Shown here: positions 1 to 19,597 of the stretch, in pieces
How positions within the stretch are numbered: the stretch's first letter is position 1
How the letters are laid out: each line of letters starts with the position of its first letter
Translations under genes and position numbers: made by a program
Source of the DNA: a virus
Direction: 5' to 3' (one strand)
UHGV virus genome: UHGV-0134179
Length of the DNA: 24,963 bases
Notes under the pieces: model-generated
What the model saw: the letters and a program-made list of their open reading frames with translations, nothing else
Told to the model about the DNA's origin: nothing
Database searches by the model: none

Positions 1-2
1 TG

Positions 3-203
3 GTTGGGGCTGAAAAAGAGCGGCGCCGCACAAAGGCTGAGGACGTTATCGTCCCGTTAGCGCGTGCTGTGAAATACGGAATGGCTACCTTGGATGAAAA
101 AACGCGACTGGAACACTGGGAAAAATACTCCGTTCTGCTCAGTCGTGTTAACCCTGATGATGCCCCAGATATTGAATGGCCTGTGATGCCGGAAGTTCAT
201 TAA
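3..203 (+). CDS. hypothetical protein, C-terminal 66 codons only (5' end lies upstream of the window)
   Basis: Open frame from the window edge to TAA at 201-203, translating [66 protein letters not shown]. The antisense ORF 57-269 in the track reads as low-complexity junk. No family recognised. Confidence 0.3.
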
Positions 204-311
204 GTGATAGCTATGGAATGGCCTCAGAAAAAATGGGTCCTTCCTGAGACTTTTGTAAGGCACGGGCATTGCGCGCCGCAGTGTTTTTGTAGCTACGGGT
301 TTTCAATTTGA

Positions 312-493
312 TTCACACTTGCGCACTTTCACACTTGTCACTTTTTGTTATGGGTTTGTTAATCGTGAGTGGTGGCAAGGGATTGCGGGAAGTTTCGATA
401 ATTTTTGATTCACAGTTTGATTTACACATTCAGTCTAAAAAGTGTGAACCCTTCACACTTTGTGTGCACAGTCGGTGTGCAGGGTTCACACTT
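312..493. repeat. array of TTCACACTT repeats (direct and inverted) upstream of the Nu1-like gene; candidate cosB/pac-type binding sites
   Basis: Exact TTCACACTT at 312-320, 328-336, 452-460 and 485-493; inverted copy AAAGTGTGAA at 439-448 forming a perfect palindrome AAAGTGTGAA-CCC-TTCACACTTT (439-461); degenerate copies at 409-417 and 422-430; TGTGCACA palindrome at 463-470. Confidence 0.6.
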
Positions 494-513
494 CGTCAGC
501 GAGGTAGGTTGTT

Positions 514-1098
514 ATGTTAATGTCAGTAAGCCAGTACGCCGAGCACAGCGGCATGAGTCGCCGGTCATTTTACAACTGGGAAAGTAAGCAGGGATTCCCG
601 GCTCGGGTTGACGGGAAGATTGACCAGGAGGCTTGCGATGCTTACCTGGCCCGTTACCGTGACAGTCATGATCCGCGCGCTCAGAACGCGAAAAGCAAAG
701 CGGTGGTATCCGATGGCCGCATTGTTGCTGGTAGCACTCTGGTAGAGATGAGTGTTGCGGAGATTAAACGCATCATAGCGTCAGGCGTCACCAAGGTGAC
801 CGGGATGGATCCGGACGAGCGAGCCCAGGTTGCTGCAAAGGCCGTAGAGCTGTTTGTAAGCGAAGGCCCCTATAACCCGCCTGTAACGTTCGGCGGTTAC
901 CGGCTGTCGATTGTTGAAACGCCAGATGATGAAATCGGGCAGATCATCGCGGGCGGTGCGTTTGGTCTGTCTGCATATGATGTGATCTACGAGTGCCGGG
1001 ATTACACCCTGACTCTCATGAGTGATGAAACTGAAGAAACAGCCATGCGGAGGGTTATACCTTCGTTGCTGTATGCCCTGGCCGACGATACCAACTAA
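514..1098 (+). CDS. Nu1-like small terminase subunit / winged-HTH DNA-binding protein (194 aa)
   Basis: N-terminus SQYAEHSGMSRRSFYNWESKQGFP follows the recalled lambda Nu1 HTH pattern (KKQLADIFGASIRTIQNWQEQGMP). GAGGTAGG RBS before the ATG. Sits immediately downstream of the repeat array. Product call is recall-based, not computed. Confidence 0.6.
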   Translation: MLMSVSQYAEHSGMSRRSFYNWESKQGFPARVDGKIDQEACDAYLARYRDSHDPRAQNAKSKAVVSDGRIVAGSTLVEMSVAEIKRIIASGVTKVTGMDPDERAQVAAKAVELFVSEGPYNPPVTFGGYRLSIVETPDDEIGQIIAGGAFGLSAYDVIYECRDYTLTLMSDETEETAMRRVIPSLLYALADDTN

Positions 1099-1128: not shown

Positions 1129-1156
1129 CCAGCCCTTCGGGGCTGGCTTTTTATTT
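1129..1156 (+). terminator. rho-independent terminator downstream of the Nu1-like gene
   Basis: 7-bp GC-rich stem CCAGCCC / GGGCTGG with TTCG loop (1129-1146) followed by CTTTTTATTT. Confidence 0.6.
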
Positions 1157-1200: not shown

Positions 1201-1392
1201 ATGGTGTTAAAACAGAAGAAAATCGAGGCGGTAATTGAAGAGCTGGCCCGCCTGCAGGGGCATGAGTTAAACGCCGCCGATATGCTGGAGTTACGTTGCA
1301 GGGTTGCGGGAACGCTCGCAGCAAAAGAACGGCATCGTCGGCGCATGACTGCCCCAGAATATCATTGGCGGAAGCCAGCACCTCGCCGATAA
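1201..1392 (+). CDS. hypothetical small protein (63 aa), possibly an orphan or gene remnant
   Basis: ORF with GGAGAA RBS 5 nt upstream of ATG; basic C-terminus; no recognisable family; lies at the boundary of the AT-rich insertion. Confidence 0.3.
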   Translation: MVLKQKKIEAVIEELARLQGHELNAADMLELRCRVAGTLAAKERHRRRMTAPEYHWRKPAPRR

Positions 1393-1688: not shown

Positions 1689-2819
1689 CTATTTTCTTTG
1701 AATTCCTTTTCCCGAGTTTAAATCTGGATTGTTTATCAATAGCTTTCCATCTATAAGTAAAGCATCTATTTCATCTTGCTCCATTACATGAGATAGAATG
1801 TCAAAGCTATTGTATTTGGAGTTAAGTAAATCATCTAGCTTGGCATTTATTCTCTCGAGAAAGTATTTGTGCTGAGTTAATTCATTTTTCAATTTTTCGC
1901 GTTCATAACCATTCAAATTTAAGTTGGTGTCAATCTCATGCTGTTTTTCTTCGGTGAAGTTATTGAAAGCAGTTAGTCGATAATTCATCAGTGCTTCTAG
2001 TTCGCACTTGACTCTAAATATGAAATCTTTATGCCTATTGATATTGCTATCAGAGTAGTTGCCGCTAATTATTATTTCACAAATTCTACCCGCAACTAAT
2101 CGTTCAAAAACTGAGAAAACAGAGTGCATTAGGACTTTAGACTCGAAGAATTTATCAGGGTAATAGCATAAATTATTGCTTTCTATATAATAATTGAACC
2201 CAGTAGAGTAGGCTTCTGGTTCAGATTTTAATAATTGCCTGAACCGTTCTCTTTGTAGTATATATATTTCAAAGCAATCGTCATTGCACCTAACTATTCG
2301 GGATAAATATATATCCCTCATTGAATGGTCAAACGCTAGATCTGGGATACTTCTGAAACTATCTACAATTGTTTCTGAAACCCTTTCAAATCTTGATTGC
2401 TCTTCAATAATTTGATGATTTCTAATGTCAGAACAAAGATTAGATATATAGGATAAGTTATTGTAAATAGAACCATACAGACTTATACCAAGTAAGGCTG
2501 GCATAATCCCATATGTATTATCTATATTTACTTTTTCCAGTCCTGCAGTGTCACTTATTCTTCCTTTCTCAACACAGGCGGTCGTTGACAATCCACGTAA
2601 CTCACCACTGCTAATATTCATTAGGTCTCTGGATGAGTCTTTTTTAAAAACAACTCTGTAAAAAGTATCATTTTCTGATCCAGATGTATGCATTTTAAGA
2701 ATTTGATTGAATACATAATCCAATGGAGAATTAGATATGAAAACTGGGTTGGGAATCAATTTCTCCAACATTGGGTTATTTTTAAATATGACCTGAATAC
2801 TCTTGGGTAAATCTGACAT
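1689..2819 (-). CDS. hypothetical protein (376 aa), cargo gene of unknown function
   Basis: Long ORF in clearly AT-rich DNA, opposite strand to the phage late operon. AAGG RBS upstream. No signal peptide or TM segment seen; no Walker or other catalytic motif recognised. Confidence 0.7.
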   Translation of the reverse strand: MSDLPKSIQVIFKNNPMLEKLIPNPVFISNSPLDYVFNQILKMHTSGSENDTFYRVVFKKDSSRDLMNISSGELRGLSTTACVEKGRISDTAGLEKVNIDNTYGIMPALLGISLYGSIYNNLSYISNLCSDIRNHQIIEEQSRFERVSETIVDSFRSIPDLAFDHSMRDIYLSRIVRCNDDCFEIYILQRERFRQLLKSEPEAYSTGFNYYIESNNLCYYPDKFFESKVLMHSVFSVFERLVAGRICEIIISGNYSDSNINRHKDFIFRVKCELEALMNYRLTAFNNFTEEKQHEIDTNLNLNGYEREKLKNELTQHKYFLERINAKLDDLLNSKYNSFDILSHVMEQDEIDALLIDGKLLINNPDLNSGKGIQRK

Positions 2820-2846: not shown

Positions 2847-3311
2847 TTATATTCTAGGGCCTTCTAGGTGACATTGGTATGATGCTCCTCCATGTTCGTT
2901 AATAAACCAATCAATGGCATGCCCGGAAAGTCTGTCGATTGAAACGTGTGATATCTGATACCATGATTCACCGTCTCTTGATGCCTCTACAATATATTCT
3001 ATTTCTTTATCGTTTATCACCGGTTTTATCACCCGGAATAAAGTATCGTCCCGTCCCTGCGATTCATTATCGACGGACACAATCACCCCTCGGCTAAACC
3101 AGTTTGCTGTTCTACCATTTCCTGCGCACGTATCACCTGAGTCAATTCGCATATCAAAGCAGAGTTTATTATTCAATAGATAAGGTACAGGCCAAATTCC
3201 GGAGTCTGTGTTGCCATTTTTATCCTGAGGATCGCACACTATGAGGGATGTTCCTGATGCCATGAACGGCAGAGTGAACAATAGCGCAAAAGACAAAATT
3301 TTATAGTTCAT
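2847..3311 (-). CDS. secreted Cys-containing protein (154 aa precursor), cargo gene of unknown function
   Basis: Start taken at the internal Met (3311), giving a signal-peptide-like N-terminus MNYKILSFALLFTLPFMASG. GGTGGTGA RBS just upstream. Four Cys in the mature part. The track ORF extends to 3392 but the extension translates the RBS region. Confidence 0.6.
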   Translation of the reverse strand: MNYKILSFALLFTLPFMASGTSLIVCDPQDKNGNTDSGIWPVPYLLNNKLCFDMRIDSGDTCAGNGRTANWFSRGVIVSVDNESQGRDDTLFRVIKPVINDKEIEYIVEASRDGESWYQISHVSIDRLSGHAIDWFINEHGGASYQCHLEGPRI

Positions 3312-3409
3312 AAAATCACCACCCACATCAATAACTCCGCTTTTTCGGAGCAGCACTGTGACCGTGCCGCCTTCATCGCGCCTAAGAGCCACCGCCAGAC
3401 TTAACCTTA

Positions 3410-3544: not shown

Positions 3545-3712
3545 GTCATTAAATATCATTATGATAACAACGATGTCTTGAACTGGGAAGAGATACTTGA
3601 TCAACGCCAGCGGGAAATTGAGTCCTGCCTGAAGCGCGGACTTCCATTACCGAGCTGGGCGCAGGCGGATCAGTTCGCCAGCCAGACAATTACCGATCCG
3701 GAGGAAAAGTGA
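3545..3712 (+). pseudogene. 3' remnant of a portal-like gene (about 55 codons, no start codon)
   Basis: Open frame without an ATG ending in TGA at 3710-3712, overlapping the GTG start of the protease (GTGA) as the portal/protease junction does in lambda. Translation ...NDVLNWEEILDQRQREIESCLKRGLPLPSWAQADQFASQTITDPEEK. GC-rich, unlike the adjacent cassette. Portal identity is inferred from position. Confidence 0.4.
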
Positions 3713-4576: not shown

Positions 4577-5167
4577 ATGGCGAAGAAAAAGACATTTAGT
4601 TTTGCTCATCTTATTGGCCGTGGCGCGGCTGCTTCCGAAGAGGAAGAAGACAAAAAGGCCAAAAAAGCGAAAGGCCGTCGCGCGGAAGAGGATGAGCGCG
4701 AAGATGATGCCGAGGACGATGAACGCGAAGATGACGCGGAAGACGACGAGCGTGATGATGACGCTGAAGATGACGGTGACGACCCGGATGCGGCGGAAGA
4801 CGATGAAGATTCCGAAGATGACGGCGACGATGACCGCAAAGAAAGCAAAGCGGTGAAAAATGCCCGCGCCGCCGAGCGTAAACGTTGCGCCCGTATCTTC
4901 GGCAGTAAGCACGCTGCGGCGAATCCGTCACTGGCCGCTTCACTCGCATTCAATACCGGGATGAGCTCTGCCGCCGCTATCGATGTTCTGGCATCCACGG
5001 CGCCAGCCTTGCAACCAAAGGCAACGCGCGGGCGCTCTCTCGATCAGCGCATGCAGGAAAGCCATGATGTCCGTCTGAATCCGGATGGCGGCAAGAAAGA
5101 GAACGGTAAATCGGCACTGGTAAACCAGATGACCGGCCTCTACAACTCCATTAAAGGAGAGAAATAA
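4577..5167 (+). CDS. acidic scaffold-like head protein (196 aa)
   Basis: Start at internal ATG 4577 with AGGAG RBS; the track ORF from 4493 overlaps the protease. Long acidic repeat EDDAEDDER x3. Position between protease and decoration/capsid genes. Confidence 0.6.
   Translation: MAKKKTFSFAHLIGRGAAASEEEEDKKAKKAKGRRAEEDEREDDAEDDEREDDAEDDERDDDAEDDGDDPDAAEDDEDSEDDGDDDRKESKAVKNARAAERKRCARIFGSKHAAANPSLAASLAFNTGMSSAAAIDVLASTAPALQPKATRGRSLDQRMQESHDVRLNPDGGKKENGKSALVNQMTGLYNSIKGEK
4688..4786 (+). repeat. roughly 27-bp tandem coding repeats (acidic EDDAEDDER units) inside the scaffold-like gene
   Basis: Three consecutive GA-rich units encoding EDEREDDAEDD / EREDDAEDD / ERDDDAEDD; creates long spurious antisense ORFs. 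Confidence 0.5.
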
Positions 5168-17741: not shown

Positions 17742-18527
17742 ATGAGAAAAGTTGGCAGTACAACTGACACCGCTGATGTTAATGGTGAATACACTAATGG
17801 TAATGTCGCTAATGGTATTTCACCGACAATAATTAATGCTGAGATGATGAATACCTTTCAGCGTGAGCTGGTAAACGTTGTTGAAGGCGCGGGGCTTGAG
17901 CTTGATCCTGATGATGATTCACAGGTTCATAAAGCGATTGGTGGCGGTCGCCTGCTTAATATTGTCACATTTACGAAGTCAGGGACTTACACTCCAACTA
18001 AAGGGACGAAAAGAGTGCGGGTGAAAGTTTGGGGAGCGGGGGGAGGTGGCCAGAATGCTCCAGTTAATGTGGGCGCATCTGGTGGTTGTGCTGGTGGGTT
18101 TTCGGAAGGGTTATTTAATATTTCTGATAACGAAACTATATCTGTGACGATAGGTACTGGTGGCAGTGCTGTTGCTGCTGGTGTCGCGTCTAAAGGCGGG
18201 AACGGTGGTGATACAAGGTTCGGGAGTTTAATCTCAGCTACTGGAGGGAGTGGTGGCGGGTCTACAGTTCCTGCTGGAGGTATCGGAAGTGGCGGGAACA
18301 TTTTAAATATTACTGGCGGAATATCTCAAGGTGGTCTGTATTATGGTTCTGATGCTTTTATTGGCGGGGCTGGAGGATCTGCATTTTCATCAACGGGTGG
18401 CAATGGCCACTTCGGTAGTTCTGGCGATGATGGCGGTTTCCCCGGCTCAGGTGGTGCCGGGGGGAATGGTAACTATTCATCAGGAAAAGGAGCGAATGGT
18501 TTAGTTTACCTTGAAGAGTTTTCCTGA
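17742..18527 (+). CDS. tail fibre protein with glycine-rich C-terminal domain
   Basis: 261 aa; N-terminal ADVNGEYTNGNVANGISPTIINAEMMNTFQRELVNVVEG resembles conserved fibre N-termini; the C-terminal ~170 aa are dominated by GG/GGxGG repeats. Confidence 0.65.
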   Translation: MRKVGSTTDTADVNGEYTNGNVANGISPTIINAEMMNTFQRELVNVVEGAGLELDPDDDSQVHKAIGGGRLLNIVTFTKSGTYTPTKGTKRVRVKVWGAGGGGQNAPVNVGASGGCAGGFSEGLFNISDNETISVTIGTGGSAVAAGVASKGGNGGDTRFGSLISATGGSGGGSTVPAGGIGSGGNILNITGGISQGGLYYGSDAFIGGAGGSAFSSTGGNGHFGSSGDDGGFPGSGGAGGNGNYSSGKGANGLVYLEEFS

Positions 18528-19597
18528 TTATTTTTGCTTTGAGCGTCCGCCCTTATTTTTGCTCTAATTTTAATTAGTGGCTTGTCTATTAATATTACAC
18601 AAACGATCCCAAGTGCAATTGATATTGGGTAGCCTAATAAAAAGATAGATAAACCACGATTTTCACCACCAATAGCAAGCCATGCTAGAAATCCGCCAAA
18701 ATATTGACAAAGAAAAATTGGATAGGCCAGATCACCAAACCACTTGAGTATTTTCTCAAGATGTATGTTTGTCTTTATTTTTAATAATGCCAGGGTTGTA
18801 AATAATGCTATTGCATTATTGGTGTAGTAAAGTATTATGTTGTACTGACCTAATGCATTAATTGTATATAAATACCAATTGGTAATAAAAATCCCAATGC
18901 AGATAAATGTTATTAAAAAAGCCTTGTGTGGAGAAAGATACATAGCTTTGAACTTTCTATGGGCAAAATAACCCAGAGAACCCATGCTAAAAGGAAGTGT
19001 TGCAGCAAGGAATGGGAAATACGCCATATCAAAAGAATGGTGAACTACATATACGTAAGCATGATAAAGCAGTGAAAGCAGAATCGACGTAATGGCTGTA
19101 AATTTATTTCTGGCTATGAAAAGCCACAATAAAAAATAACATGTTATCTCAACACCCACTGACCATGATGATGTGACTATTCTGAATCTATTACCATCAA
19201 TAGCAAAGTGATAAATGGATGAAAAGGCACCGAATGGATTTGCTACAGCATTATCAGAAAGGAAAGCCCAGGGGAAGATTAAGAGGTTTCCTAATAAATC
19301 TCCAGGCAAGAAATTGCCTGTCCAGTTTGAATGGAATTCCTTTGCGGATGGAATTAATTTTATAATAAGAAAGCCCATGACGAGAAAAAATATATATGCC
19401 GGGAATAACCTCAGTATTCTATTTTTCCAAAACATAGAGAAGTTGAACTTGTATGTTTCATGCAAAATGTATGTTATTAAAAAGCCACTAATAACATAGA
19501 AGCAATTCACTGCAAAGTTGCCAAGTGCAGGTATGCGAGCCGTTAAGTGAAAAGCAATGACGCACGATGCCAAAAAAAACCTTATTAGGCCAAGCAT
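18506..19597 (-). CDS. acyltransferase family 3 membrane protein (O-antigen acetylase-like lysogenic-conversion candidate)
   Basis: 363 aa, AT-rich, highly hydrophobic with many predicted TM segments. N-terminus LGLIRFFLASCVIAFH aligns with the AT3 GLRG...H motif and is followed by FYVISGFLI. Opposite strand to the fibre genes. Confidence 0.8.
   Translation of the reverse strand: MLGLIRFFLASCVIAFHLTARIPALGNFAVNCFYVISGFLITYILHETYKFNFSMFWKNRILRLFPAYIFFLVMGFLIIKLIPSAKEFHSNWTGNFLPGDLLGNLLIFPWAFLSDNAVANPFGAFSSIYHFAIDGNRFRIVTSSWSVGVEITCYFLLWLFIARNKFTAITSILLSLLYHAYVYVVHHSFDMAYFPFLAATLPFSMGSLGYFAHRKFKAMYLSPHKAFLITFICIGIFITNWYLYTINALGQYNIILYYTNNAIALFTTLALLKIKTNIHLEKILKWFGDLAYPIFLCQYFGGFLAWLAIGGENRGLSIFLLGYPISIALGIVCVILIDKPLIKIRAKIRADAQSKNNQENSSR

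What the first reader, a model, noticed from the sequence alone, without database searches (positions are those of the whole stretch)
300..510. Dense TTCACACTT repeat array with a perfect palindrome upstream of the Nu1-like gene (cosB/pac-like site)
Four exact TTCACACTT copies, one inverted copy forming the perfect 23-bp palindrome AAAGTGTGAA-CCC-TTCACACTTT (439-461), two degenerate copies and a TGTGCACA palindrome are packed into about 200 bp right before the gene for an HTH protein resembling small terminase. This mirrors the lambda cosB R-site arrangement bound by gpNu1. Alternatively the repeats could be operators of a late-gene regulator. Another AAAGTGTG occurs at 1102-1109, just after the gene.
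Basis: seen in the sequence. Interest (0 to 1): 0.55.

Follow-up and report, generated by a model that had tools for sequence, protein, structure and literature searches.

The report
Satellite cosB repeats for packaging hijack
The repeats are most likely the DNA-packaging recognition site (cosB) of a phage satellite, read by the satellite's own terminase-like DNA-binding protein so that a helper phage's packaging machine fills capsids with satellite DNA instead of phage DNA.

Summary
TTCACACTT occurs exactly five times in the 25-kb window, all between 312 and 493 (0.17 expected by chance).

The array lies 48 bp downstream of a lambda-type cosQ/cosN core. GGGTCCT is at 235-241 and the predicted nick is after 264, the same 30-bp geometry as phage lambda. 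The array also lies directly upstream of a 194-aa gene.

[quoted passage not shown] No terminase large subunit gene follows it.

The same cos, repeat array, 194-aa gene and 63-aa gene form the right end of phage-inducible chromosomal islands (PICIs) at fis, hpt and yicC, in the slot that rppA occupies in EcCICFT073.

Helper-type prophages share the cosQ/cosN core. At the same +47 to +50 offset they carry other repeats (GGTAACA or TGTCCCA) before genuine full-length TerS genes.

Across 17-18 related loci the repeats come in two flavours, TTCACAC and TTGACAC. The flavour tracks residues 17 and 19 of the predicted recognition helix (Arg/Phe versus Gln/Leu) without exception, over at least 4-6 independent switches.

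Verdict: this is a satellite-specific cosB read by an Rpp-like redirecting protein of an uncharacterised family. It is a new variant of a known kind. Binding and packaging have not been tested.

The parts
235..241 (+). cosQ-like heptamer GGGTCCT
   Evidence: Identical to lambda cosQ (48473-48479). It lies at the same 30-nt distance from the ACG|GG nick position. It is invariant in 14 aligned loci and shared with helper prophages and Citrobacter phage phiNP.
261..280 (+). cosN-like site CACG|GGCATTGCGCGC|CGCA. The nick is predicted after 264 and the 12-nt cohesive end at 265-276.
   Evidence: Inferred from positional alignment with the mapped ends of lambda. The site is nearly invariant across satellites and helper phages. 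The flanks CACG/CGTG are symmetric in several loci. Virion ends have not been mapped.
286..311 (+). Conserved spacer block (TAGCTAC...TTTTCAATTTGA) between cosN and the first repeat
   Evidence: Conserved in both satellites and helper phages. It fixes the cosN-to-first-repeat distance.
312..341 (+). cosB block 1, the R3-equivalent: TTCACAC at 312 and 328 plus degenerate CAC units (TTGCGCAC, TTGTCAC)
   Evidence: Starts at +48 from the predicted nick. Other satellites start at +49/+50, helper repeats at +47 to +50, and lambda R3 spans bp 50-65. In most relatives this block is three tandem units 7 bp apart.
342..403 (.). Variable spacer between the two repeat blocks
   Evidence: Poorly conserved in the 14-locus alignment. 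There is no convincing IHF consensus.
404..429 (+). cosB block 2: TTTGATTCACAG and TTTGATTTACAC, direct degenerate copies
   Evidence: D2. The columns TTTGATT.ACA.TTTGATT.ACAC are invariant or nearly so across loci, and the dot position switches C/G with flavour.
439..461 (.). Inverted pair AAAGTGTGAA-CCC-TTCACACTTT
   Evidence: (I7), 100% complementary. Conserved in all C-flavour loci. G-flavour loci have GTGTCAA-G-TTGACAG at this place.
475..493 (.). Second inverted pair GTGTGcA-GGG-TTCACACTT, the reverse complement of the first
   Evidence: I2: 19 nt, 95%. In L008, L010 and L015 the left half is an exact GTGTGAA. It ends 21 bp before the ATG.
514..1098 (+). Gene for the 194-aa protein: a TerS-type winged-HTH DNA-binding domain (aa 1 to ~60), a linker, and an orphan C-terminal domain
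   Evidence: - PHROG57 matches aa 1-61 only.
- 51% identity over 69 aa to a helper-type TerS DBD.
- The C-domain has only 13 hits in 1.84 billion representatives.
- 119 homologs, all Enterobacterales and all 'hypothetical'.
559..582 (+). Codons 16-23, the predicted recognition helix (RRSFYNWE)
   Evidence: AF2 predicts a helix at 16-23. R17/F19 go with TTCACAC and Q17/L19 with TTGACAC in every one of 17 loci.
1129..1155 (+). Intrinsic terminator after the 194-aa gene
   Evidence: 7-bp stem with 6 GC pairs, followed by CTTTTTATTT.
1201..1392 (+). 63-aa gene, the conserved neighbour of the module
   Evidence: phrog_7271/1561. Homologous to the 93-aa ORF that follows rppA/cos2 in EcCICFT073. Present after the 194-aa gene in L001, L003 and L025.

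Best explanation
Window 235-513 is the cos site of a PICI-type phage satellite. It keeps the helper phage's cosQ and cosN, which the helper's large terminase needs for cutting and for ending packaging. It replaces the helper's cosB with its own array of about nine TTCACAC half-sites: tandem copies at the R3 position, two direct copies, and two inverted pairs.

The 194-aa protein encoded just downstream binds these half-sites through the recognition helix of its Nu1/TerS-type winged helix-turn-helix. Residues 17 and 19 read the third base of the motif.

The protein lacks the conserved C-terminal half that helper TerS proteins use to hold TerL. It therefore most likely acts like Rpp of EcCICFT073: it associates with the helper's TerS through the shared DBD surfaces and/or its own C-terminal domain, diverts terminase from the helper's cosB to the satellite's cosB, and so promotes satellite packaging at the helper's expense.

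**Shown here:** the sequence anatomy, the conservation, the co-variation, the domain relationships and the genomic context.

**Inferred:** DNA binding, the nick position, the interaction with helper TerS, and interference with the helper.
For: 1. **Non-random array.** Five exact copies against 0.17 expected.
2. **Lambda geometry.** cosQ GGGTCCT, then 30 nt to ACG|GG. The first repeat is at +48; lambda R3 spans bp 50-65.
3. **Same core in real phages.** Phage phiNP and lambdoid E. coli prophages have the same cosQ/cosN core. It is followed at +47 to +50 by other repeat families (GGTAACA, TGTCCCA), then by full-length PHROG57 TerS, TerL, gpW and portal.
4. **Phylogenetic footprint.** The repeats are invariant and the spacers are variable across 14 loci from about 9 genera.
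5. **Specificity co-variation.**
   - 9 loci have 4-6 TTCACAC, no TTGACAC, and an SRR[SA]F helix. 9 loci have 5-7 TTGACAC, no TTCACAC, and an SRQAL helix.
   - R17/F19 versus Q17/L19 are fully discriminating, with at least 6 flavour changes on the C-domain tree and 4 on the N-domain tree.
   - L008 and L009 have 91%-identical C-domains and opposite flavours.
6. **Domain logic.**
   - The helper TerS proteins share a ~95%-identical C-terminal half and differ in their DBDs.
   - The 194-aa protein has a homologous DBD, 51% identical over 69 aa, and an unrelated orphan C-domain.
   - RppA shows the same DBD-only match to PHROG57.
7. **Context.**
   - The module is the right end of PICIs at hpt, fis and yicC.
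   - It sits in the rppA slot and is followed by a homologue of the gene that follows rppA.
   - E. coli 2022CK-00450 carries both such a PICI and a prophage with the same cos core.
8. **No promoter.** No sigma-70 promoter match in 150-1450.
Against: - There are no experimental data on binding, cutting or packaging for this family.
- The nick position is inferred from lambda only.
- The repeats and the HTH codons are adjacent, so part of the co-variation could reflect co-inheritance of one recombination cassette. That does not explain why every copy in an array carries the same base.
- Sequence similarity to RppA-C is confined to about 26 HTH residues (hhalign probability 24%).
- The predicted C-domain shows no Rpp-like long coiled-coil helix, and its most conserved part is modelled with low confidence. 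The Rpp-like partnership with helper TerS is therefore an analogy.
- Known Rpp PICIs have no repeated R sequences, so this cosB is built differently.
- Half-site spacing in the inverted pairs differs between the flavours (3 bp versus 1 bp).
- The window is a metagenome contig that begins inside the satellite's late zone. The satellite's integrase, primase and other core genes are seen only in relatives.
Confidence: 0.62

Rival explanations
1. The site and binding protein are the same, but the 194-aa protein is a self-sufficient satellite small terminase, as in SaPI TerS. Its orphan C-terminal domain oligomerises and recruits the helper's TerL directly, with no need for helper TerS.
For: - The protein is TerS-sized (194 aa, versus 189-201 aa for helper TerS).
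- Its C-domain is strongly conserved (invariant PPxTFGxYRL and AGGAF), as expected for a protein-protein interface.
- Rpp proteins are shorter (139-154 aa) and are not homologous beyond the HTH.
Against: - The C-terminal half shared by the helper TerS proteins (~95% identical between flavours) is entirely absent.
- The match to PHROG57 stops at residue 61, as it does for RppA.
- The C-domain occurs nowhere else, including in phage TerS.
Confidence: 0.17
2. The repeats are operators of a MerR/excisionase-type transcription factor. The 194-aa protein autoregulates its own expression or that of the satellite's late zone, and the adjacency to cos is incidental.
For: - The fold hits include MerR-family regulators and excisionases.
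- One source names a homolog 'DNA-binding transcriptional MerR regulator' (P0002).
- The last inverted pair ends 21 bp before the ATG, next to the ribosome-binding site.
- A terminator follows the gene.
Against: - No sigma-70 promoter match in the region.
- About nine half-sites spread over 180 bp, with a tandem block at a fixed +48 from cosN, is not operator-like.
- Genuine phage TerS genes of the same supergroup have the same layout with their own repeats.
- The best structural matches are a TerS DBD and RppC.
- The gene occupies the rppA slot of PICIs.
- A secondary autoregulatory role is not excluded; lambda R1 also lies just before Nu1.
Confidence: 0.1
3. The repeats serve something else: iterons of a satellite replication origin, or an RNA/ssDNA hairpin element formed by 440-493.
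For: - Iteron-like direct repeats are present.
- 440-493 can fold into a long hairpin, and the 300-515 RNA fold has z = -2.7.
Against: - In complete relatives the primase/SSB replication zone lies about 6 kb upstream, and PICI origins map downstream of pri.
- The direct copies at 312-336 and 404-429 take no part in the hairpin.
- G-flavour loci have a different arrangement of inverted sites.
- There is no Rfam family; only two sub-threshold chance hits.
Confidence: 0.03

Closest known systems
Rpp / cos1 module of the E. coli PICI EcCICFT073 (Fillol-Salom et al. 2019, PMC6739421; Murialdo & Feiss 2022, PMC9026076)
   Same: - It sits at the right end of a Gram-negative PICI.
- cosQ and cosN are like the helper's, and cosB is different.
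- The gene directly downstream encodes a protein whose only similarity to Nu1-type TerS is the N-terminal winged HTH. PHROG57 matches aa 7-47 of RppA and aa 1-61 here.
- It is followed by a homologous small gene (phrog_1561/7271).
- RppC is the second-best structural match.
   Different: - There is no sequence homology beyond about 26 HTH residues.
- The protein is 194 aa against 139-154 aa, and its orphan C-domain has no predicted coiled coil.
- The cosN sequence is that of a different helper group: GGCATTGCGCGC, not lambda's GGGCGGCGACCT.
- cosB is a ~180-bp array of about nine repeated half-sites. Rpp PICIs have no repeated R sequences, and a single R3-like site has been proposed for them.
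Phage lambda cosB (R3-I1-R2-R1) and gpNu1
   Same: - The order is cosQ, cosN, then repeats, then the gene for the winged-HTH protein.
- The cosQ-to-nick distance is the same 30 nt.
- The first site lies about +48 to +65 from the nick.
- Direct and inverted sites are mixed, and the last site lies just before the start codon.
   Different: - The repeat sequence is different and there are more, shorter sites.
- No clear IHF site.
- The protein lacks Nu1's oligomerisation and gpA-binding parts.
- No terL follows the gene.
- The element is a satellite.
Packaging-specificity cassettes of lambdoid phages (lambda versus 21 versus N15 cosB/TerS DBD; reviewed in PMC9026076)
   Same: The cosB repeats and the TerS-type DBD change together while the rest of the packaging apparatus stays the same. 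Here there are four flavours on one cosQ/cosN core: GGTAACA, TGTCCCA, TTCACAC and TTGACAC.
   Different: Two of the four flavours belong to satellites and are attached to a non-TerS C-domain. The two satellite flavours differ by a single base in the motif and by two helix residues.
SaPI-encoded small terminase (pac-type PICIs of Gram-positive cocci)
   Same: The satellite encodes its own packaging-specificity subunit, which redirects the helper's TerL to satellite DNA.
   Different: SaPI TerS is a complete TerS acting on a pac site, with headful packaging. Here the site is a cos site and the protein has only the DBD in common with TerS.

Membership tests
Lambda-type cos site (cosQ-cosN-cosB) | cosQ heptamer upstream of cosN at a fixed distance | tested here: met
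   Heptamer GGGTCCT at 235-241. It lies 30 nt from its first base to the ACG|GG junction, exactly as in lambda 48473-48502. It is invariant in 14 loci.
Lambda-type cos site (cosQ-cosN-cosB) | cosN: staggered nicks giving 12-nt cohesive ends, with partial two-fold symmetry | tested here: inconclusive
   The conserved CACG-GGCATTGCGCGC-CG(C/T)(A/G) aligns with lambda's nick positions and has symmetric flanks in several loci. No virion ends are available. The phiNP record is circular.
Lambda-type cos site (cosQ-cosN-cosB) | cosB: repeated R sites between cosN and the small-subunit gene, with the first (R3) about 50-65 bp from the nick | tested here: met
   The first TTCACAC is at +48. About nine half-sites lie between +48 and +229, and the ATG is at +250. 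Lambda R3 spans bp 50-65.
Lambda-type cos site (cosQ-cosN-cosB) | IHF site (I1) between R3 and R2 | tested here: inconclusive
   Only one 1-mismatch match to WATCAANNNNTTR, at 410-422 (-), and it overlaps a repeat. Lambda's own I1 also scores 1 mismatch. The spacer 342-403 is not conserved.
Lambda-type cos site (cosQ-cosN-cosB) | R sites bound by the adjacent winged-HTH protein and needed for packaging | not testable with these tools
   Indirect support only: perfect co-variation of the repeat base with helix residues 17 and 19.
Nu1-type small terminase (PHROG57) | N-terminal winged-HTH DNA-binding domain | tested here: met
   - PHROG57 matches aa 1-61, E 5e-8.
- 51% identity over 69 aa to a helper-type TerS.
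Nu1-type small terminase (PHROG57) | Central oligomerisation and C-terminal TerL-binding regions homologous to the family | tested here: not met
   Lambda Nu1 and the helper TerS proteins match PHROG57 over their full length. The 194-aa protein matches only aa 1-61. BLASTP finds no similarity to helper TerS beyond aa ~69. The C-domain is an orphan.
Nu1-type small terminase (PHROG57) | Gene immediately followed by, or overlapping, the large terminase gene | tested here: not met
   In the window a terminator, a 63-aa gene and two reverse-strand genes follow. In the PICIs L001, L004 and L025 host genes follow within 0.5-2 kb.
Rpp (redirecting phage packaging) proteins of Gram-negative PICIs | Encoded in a PICI just downstream of a cos whose cosQ/cosN match the helper and whose cosB does not | tested here: met
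   Relatives of the module close PICIs at hpt, fis and yicC. The cos core is shared with the helper prophages and the repeats are different. EcCICFT073 has the same layout.
Rpp (redirecting phage packaging) proteins of Gram-negative PICIs | Sequence homology to RppA/B/C | tested here: not met
   hhalign of the family profile against RppA aligns 26 columns of the HTH only, probability 24%. phmmer and hmmsearch against PDB sequences do not find RppC.
Rpp (redirecting phage packaging) proteins of Gram-negative PICIs | TerS-like DBD plus a C-terminal coiled-coil dimerisation domain | tested here: inconclusive
   The DBD is met. The AF2 model (pLDDT 67) shows short helices and a low-confidence stretch at 117-151, with no long C-terminal helix.
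Rpp (redirecting phage packaging) proteins of Gram-negative PICIs | Binds helper TerS, blocks helper packaging and promotes PICI packaging | not testable with these tools
   Inference only, from the missing TerL-binding half and from the 51%-identical DBD (including helices 1 and 3) shared with a helper TerS.
Gram-negative PICI / helper-embedded satellite | Integrase, AlpA-type regulator, Bro zone, primase/SSB zone and late zone, all in one orientation, 10-20 kb | tested here: inconclusive
   Met for the relatives L025 (complete, yicC) and L001 (hpt). The window is a contig that starts in the late zone, so its own integrase and primase cannot be seen. The right junction lies inside a helper portal gene, as described for helper-embedded satellites.

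The most novel reading that the evidence does not exclude
This is a second, unrelated family of satellite 'redirecting' proteins that arose independently of Rpp. It took a helper TerS DNA-binding domain and fused it to a new C-terminal domain, and it comes with an explicit multi-site cosB. Within the family, a two-residue change in the recognition helix (R17Q, F19L) together with a concerted C-to-G change in every repeat has repeatedly produced mutually exclusive packaging specificities. Co-resident satellites and helpers that share one cosN would thereby avoid cross-packaging.
Probability: 0.45. Interest if true: 0.65.

Novelty: new variant of a known kind. Interest (0 to 1): 0.55.

Why it matters
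The only mechanism worked out so far for packaging hijack by cos-type satellites of Gram-negative bacteria is Rpp. In Rpp islands the DNA site has never been defined, because they show no repeated R sequences.

This family offers an obvious, countable set of sites and a natural specificity switch of one base and two residues. It also has helper phages on the same cosQ/cosN core with two further repeat codes.

That makes the recognition code of Nu1-type DNA-binding domains directly testable. It also makes testable how satellites partition a shared terminase.

On the practical side, it gives a sequence signature for annotating about 120 'hypothetical' proteins and for finding the packaging sites of PICIs in Klebsiella, Raoultella, Yersinia, Serratia, Pectobacterium and E. 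coli: GGGTCCT, then N23, then GGCATTGCGCGC, then about 35 nt, then tandem TT[CG]ACAC.

Tried and rejected
- **Near-identity search against phage records:** no match for 1-1500. The distant search found only phiNP and BZS1 through the helper-type TerS.
- **Pfam, NCBIfam and PDB sequence searches with the 194-aa protein or its family profile:** nothing significant.
- **Similarity of the C-terminal tail (VIPSLLYAL) to lambda Nu1's gpA-binding tail (LIPGLLSEY):** considered and dropped, because the actual helper TerS proteins do not share it.
- **IHF site in the spacer:** not supported.
- **Circular contig or assembly wrap-around** as an explanation for the tail-fibre-assembly gene upstream of cos: no terminal overlap. 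Relatives show that satellites themselves carry tail-fibre genes there.
- **Defence-system identity of the two cargo genes:** no PADLOC or Pfam hit.
- **Known RNA family in the region:** none.
- **Copy at 1102-1109 as a distal site:** rejected, because it does not co-vary and is not conserved.
- **H31 as a second example of the 3582 breakpoint:** it turned out to be an intact prophage.

Full report
**1. The observation**

TTCACACTT occurs exactly at 312, 328, 452 and 485 on the + strand and at 440-448 on the - strand. It occurs nowhere else in the 24,963-base window. Dinucleotide-preserving shuffles give 0.17 copies on average, and none of 100 reached five.

The 10-bp inverted repeat AAAGTGTGAA/TTCACACTTT at 439-461 is exact. 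Its 3-bp centre is not self-complementary. Two degenerate direct copies carry the same TTTGATT prefix as the first copy (404-429, D2). A second inverted pair, GTGTGcA-GGG-TTCACAC at 475-493, is the reverse complement of the first (I2).

**2. What lies around it**

*Upstream.*
- The window opens with the 3' end of a tail-fibre-assembly gene (1-203).
- From 228 to 309 there is a block found in about 55 E. coli genomes, where it lies just upstream of a ~190-aa gene, terL, gpW and portal.
- Anchored on GGGTCCT, this block aligns with the mapped ends of phage lambda. In lambda, cosQ GGGTCCT (48473-79) is followed after 30 nt by ...TACG|GGGCGGCGACCT. In the window, GGGTCCT (235-241) is followed after 30 nt by ...CACG|GGCATTGCGCGC.
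- I therefore read 235-241 as cosQ and 261-280 as cosN, with the nick predicted after 264. This is an inference from position; no ends have been mapped.
- The first repeat starts at +48. Lambda R3 spans bp 50-65.

*Downstream.*
- The 194-aa ORF at 514-1098 has no Pfam or NCBIfam family.
- It matches PHROG57 (Nu1-type small terminase) only over residues 1-61.
- It is followed by a strong terminator (1129-1155), a 63-aa gene, two reverse-strand genes of unknown function, and a 44-codon remnant of a portal gene.
- After that come an S49 protease, gpD, gpE and a contractile tail. No terL follows the 194-aa gene.

**3. The module belongs to a satellite**

The stretch 234-1355 is 94% identical to the right end of an island next to hpt in E. 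coli VG1046-3E9. That island carries an antirepressor, an Icd-like gene, a toprim primase and SSB.

- A complete 16-kb island at yicC ends in the same way. It runs from integrase through HTH regulator, AntA/B, Icd, primase, SSB and PerC to cos, a 195-aa gene and a 62-aa gene.
- In Raoultella ornithinolytica the module abuts fis/dusB.
- fis, hpt and yicC are the sites reported for Gram-negative PICIs.

The rest of the window, from 3582 onward, is 98.5% identical to lambdoid, contractile-tailed E. coli prophages. Between the same cos core and the end of portal, those prophages carry TerS, TerL, gpW and portal. The junction lies 43 codons before the portal stop. This fits a helper-embedded satellite or a recombination scar. 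The window is a whole metagenome contig and is not circular, so the left part of the satellite cannot be seen.

**4. The EcCICFT073 comparison**

In the model PICI the order is cosQ, cosN (lambda type), about 70 bp, rppA (144 aa), an inverted second cos, and then a 93-aa ORF.

- That 93-aa ORF is homologous to the window's 63-aa ORF (phrog_1561/7271, shared C-terminal YHW[KR]KP motif).
- RppA matches PHROG57 only at residues 7-47. Lambda Nu1 and the helper TerS proteins match it over their full length. The 194-aa protein behaves like RppA in this respect.
- Beyond the HTH there is no similarity to RppA.
- The C-terminal domain (aa 74-194) has only 13 hits among 1.84 billion representative proteins. 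Twelve are family members or fragments of them; the thirteenth is one weak hit to a long repetitive protein.

**5. Helper phages have the same layout with other repeats**

After the shared core, two repeat families occur at the same offset.
- E. coli prophage L002 and Citrobacter phage phiNP carry GGTAACA repeats starting at +49/+50.
- Prophages L028 and L029 carry eight TGTCCCA copies starting at +47.
- In both cases the repeats run up to an annotated or full-length PHROG57 TerS gene.

The two helper TerS types are ~95% identical in their C-terminal halves and differ in the DBD. In this phage group, DBD and repeats therefore form a specificity cassette on a constant terminase. The 194-aa protein's first 69 residues are 51% identical to the TGTCCCA-type TerS, and nothing after that matches. 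E. coli 2022CK-00450 carries both a PICI with the module and such a prophage.

**6. Conservation and co-variation**

Eighteen loci from Raoultella, Yersinia, Pectobacterium, Morganella, Edaphovirga, Acerihabitans, Rahnella, Brenneria, Hafnia and E. coli encode homologs that are 55-94% identical. All have the same upstream architecture.

- In a 14-locus alignment the invariant columns are cosQ, cosN, the spacer block and the repeats. The sequence between the repeat blocks is variable.
- The repeats come in two flavours. Nine loci have 4-6 TTCACAC and no TTGACAC. Nine have 5-7 TTGACAC and no TTCACAC.
- The flavour matches residues 17 and 19 of the predicted recognition helix (helix 16-23) without exception in the 17 loci put on the tree: Arg/Phe versus Gln/Leu. 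This holds over at least six changes on a tree of the C-terminal domain and four on a tree of the N-terminal domain.
- Sliding identity shows the exchange. Window versus L006/L025 is 92-95% identical in the cos core, 35-60% from 315 to 540, and 85-97% from 746 on.
- L008 and L009 have 91%-identical C-domains and opposite flavours.
- Adjacent DNA can be co-inherited, but that does not explain why every copy in an array carries the same base. A single reader protein does.

**7. Mechanism**

The best reading is a satellite cosB bound by the satellite's TerS-type DBD. The protein lacks the conserved TerL-holding half of the helper TerS. The most economical model is therefore the Rpp model: association with helper TerS and redirection of terminase to the satellite cos.

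Three alternatives remain.
- An autonomous satellite TerS is the main alternative.
- A transcriptional operator role is less likely, for four reasons: no promoter match, too many sites, a fixed offset from cosN, and the same layout before real TerS genes. It could still coexist with packaging for the site next to the start codon.
- Origin iterons or an RNA hairpin explain little.

**8. What is not part of it**

AAAGTGTG at 1102-1109 does not switch with flavour and is not conserved. TGTGCACA at 463-470 is only partly conserved, and its role is open.

**9. Novelty**

The principle is known from Rpp: a PICI with helper-like cosQ/cosN, its own cosB and a DBD-bearing redirecting protein. Three things appear new.
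- The protein family. All 119 homologs are 'hypothetical' and the C-domain is an orphan.
- The explicit multi-site cosB. Rpp islands have no repeated R sequences.
- The two natural specificities.

Searches of the held literature for PICI together with cosB, and for 'redirecting phage packaging', found only the Rpp papers and reviews.

I rate it a new variant of a known kind, with interest 0.55.

Noticed in passing
window 3560-3712 (junction at ~3582): The satellite-like left part of the contig joins a lambdoid, contractile-tailed prophage 43 codons before the end of its portal gene. TerS, TerL, gpW and most of portal, which intact relatives carry between cos and this point, are missing here. 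This fits a helper-embedded satellite in gene B, or a recombination or deletion scar.
   Followed up: partly
window 1689-2819 (-) and 2847-3392 (-): Two cargo genes (376 aa and 181 aa) lie between the 63-aa gene and the junction. They have no Pfam or PADLOC match and no E. coli DNA match. Only the 181-aa protein hits a PHROG of unknown function (phrog_26680). They sit where PICIs usually carry accessory or defence genes.
   Followed up: partly
window 1201-1392; L024 3374-3655: The 63-aa ORF is homologous to the 93-aa ORF that follows rppA/cos2 in EcCICFT073 (phrog_7271/1561, shared C-terminal YHW[KR]KP...RR). It is a conserved neighbour of unknown function next to Rpp-type genes in unrelated PICI lineages.
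   Followed up: partly
L002 4031-4227; L021 3031-3106; L028 23519-23711; L029 3540-3730: Helper-type prophages and phage phiNP share the cosQ/cosN core but carry two other repeat families at the same +47 to +50 offset: GGTAACA and TGTCCCA (8 copies). Their TerS proteins have near-identical C-terminal halves and different DNA-binding domains.
   Followed up: yes
L025 and L029 (E. coli 2022CK-00450, NZ_CP104681.1): One genome holds both a yicC PICI with the TTGACAC module and a prophage with the same cos core and a TGTCCCA cosB. This is a candidate natural satellite-helper pair.
   Followed up: partly
window 1-203; L003 4662-5689: The satellites carry tail-fibre (Gp53-like_C) and tail-fibre-assembly genes immediately upstream of their cos. 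Some of these islands may therefore alter the host range of the particles that carry them.
   Followed up: no
window 862-966 (aa 117-151 of the 194-aa protein): The most conserved stretch of the protein (NPPVTFGGYRL...IIAGGAFGL, many invariant residues) is modelled with pLDDT below 50. It may fold only on binding a partner.
   Followed up: no
window 440-493: The two 17-bp inverted-pair sites are reverse complements of each other, so the stretch can form a ~25-bp hairpin in RNA or single-stranded DNA just upstream of the ribosome-binding site. Rfam gives only two sub-threshold chance hits here.
   Followed up: partly
window 18506-19597 (-): An Acyl_transf_3 family acyltransferase gene lies on the opposite strand inside the tail-fibre region of the prophage. 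It is probably a surface-polysaccharide modification (lysogenic conversion) gene.
   Followed up: no
window 4577-5167: A 196-aa protein with a highly acidic repetitive stretch (DDAEDDERE repeats) is encoded between the S49 protease and the decoration protein. It is probably a scaffold-like protein.
   Followed up: no
L018 5683-5760 (Brenneria corticis): One relative has a different cosN sequence (CACGGGCTGGGCGACGCCCCG, closer to lambda's GGGCGGCGACCT) but keeps the TTGACAC cosB and the 194-aa homolog. cosN and cosB therefore appear to be exchanged independently.
   Followed up: no
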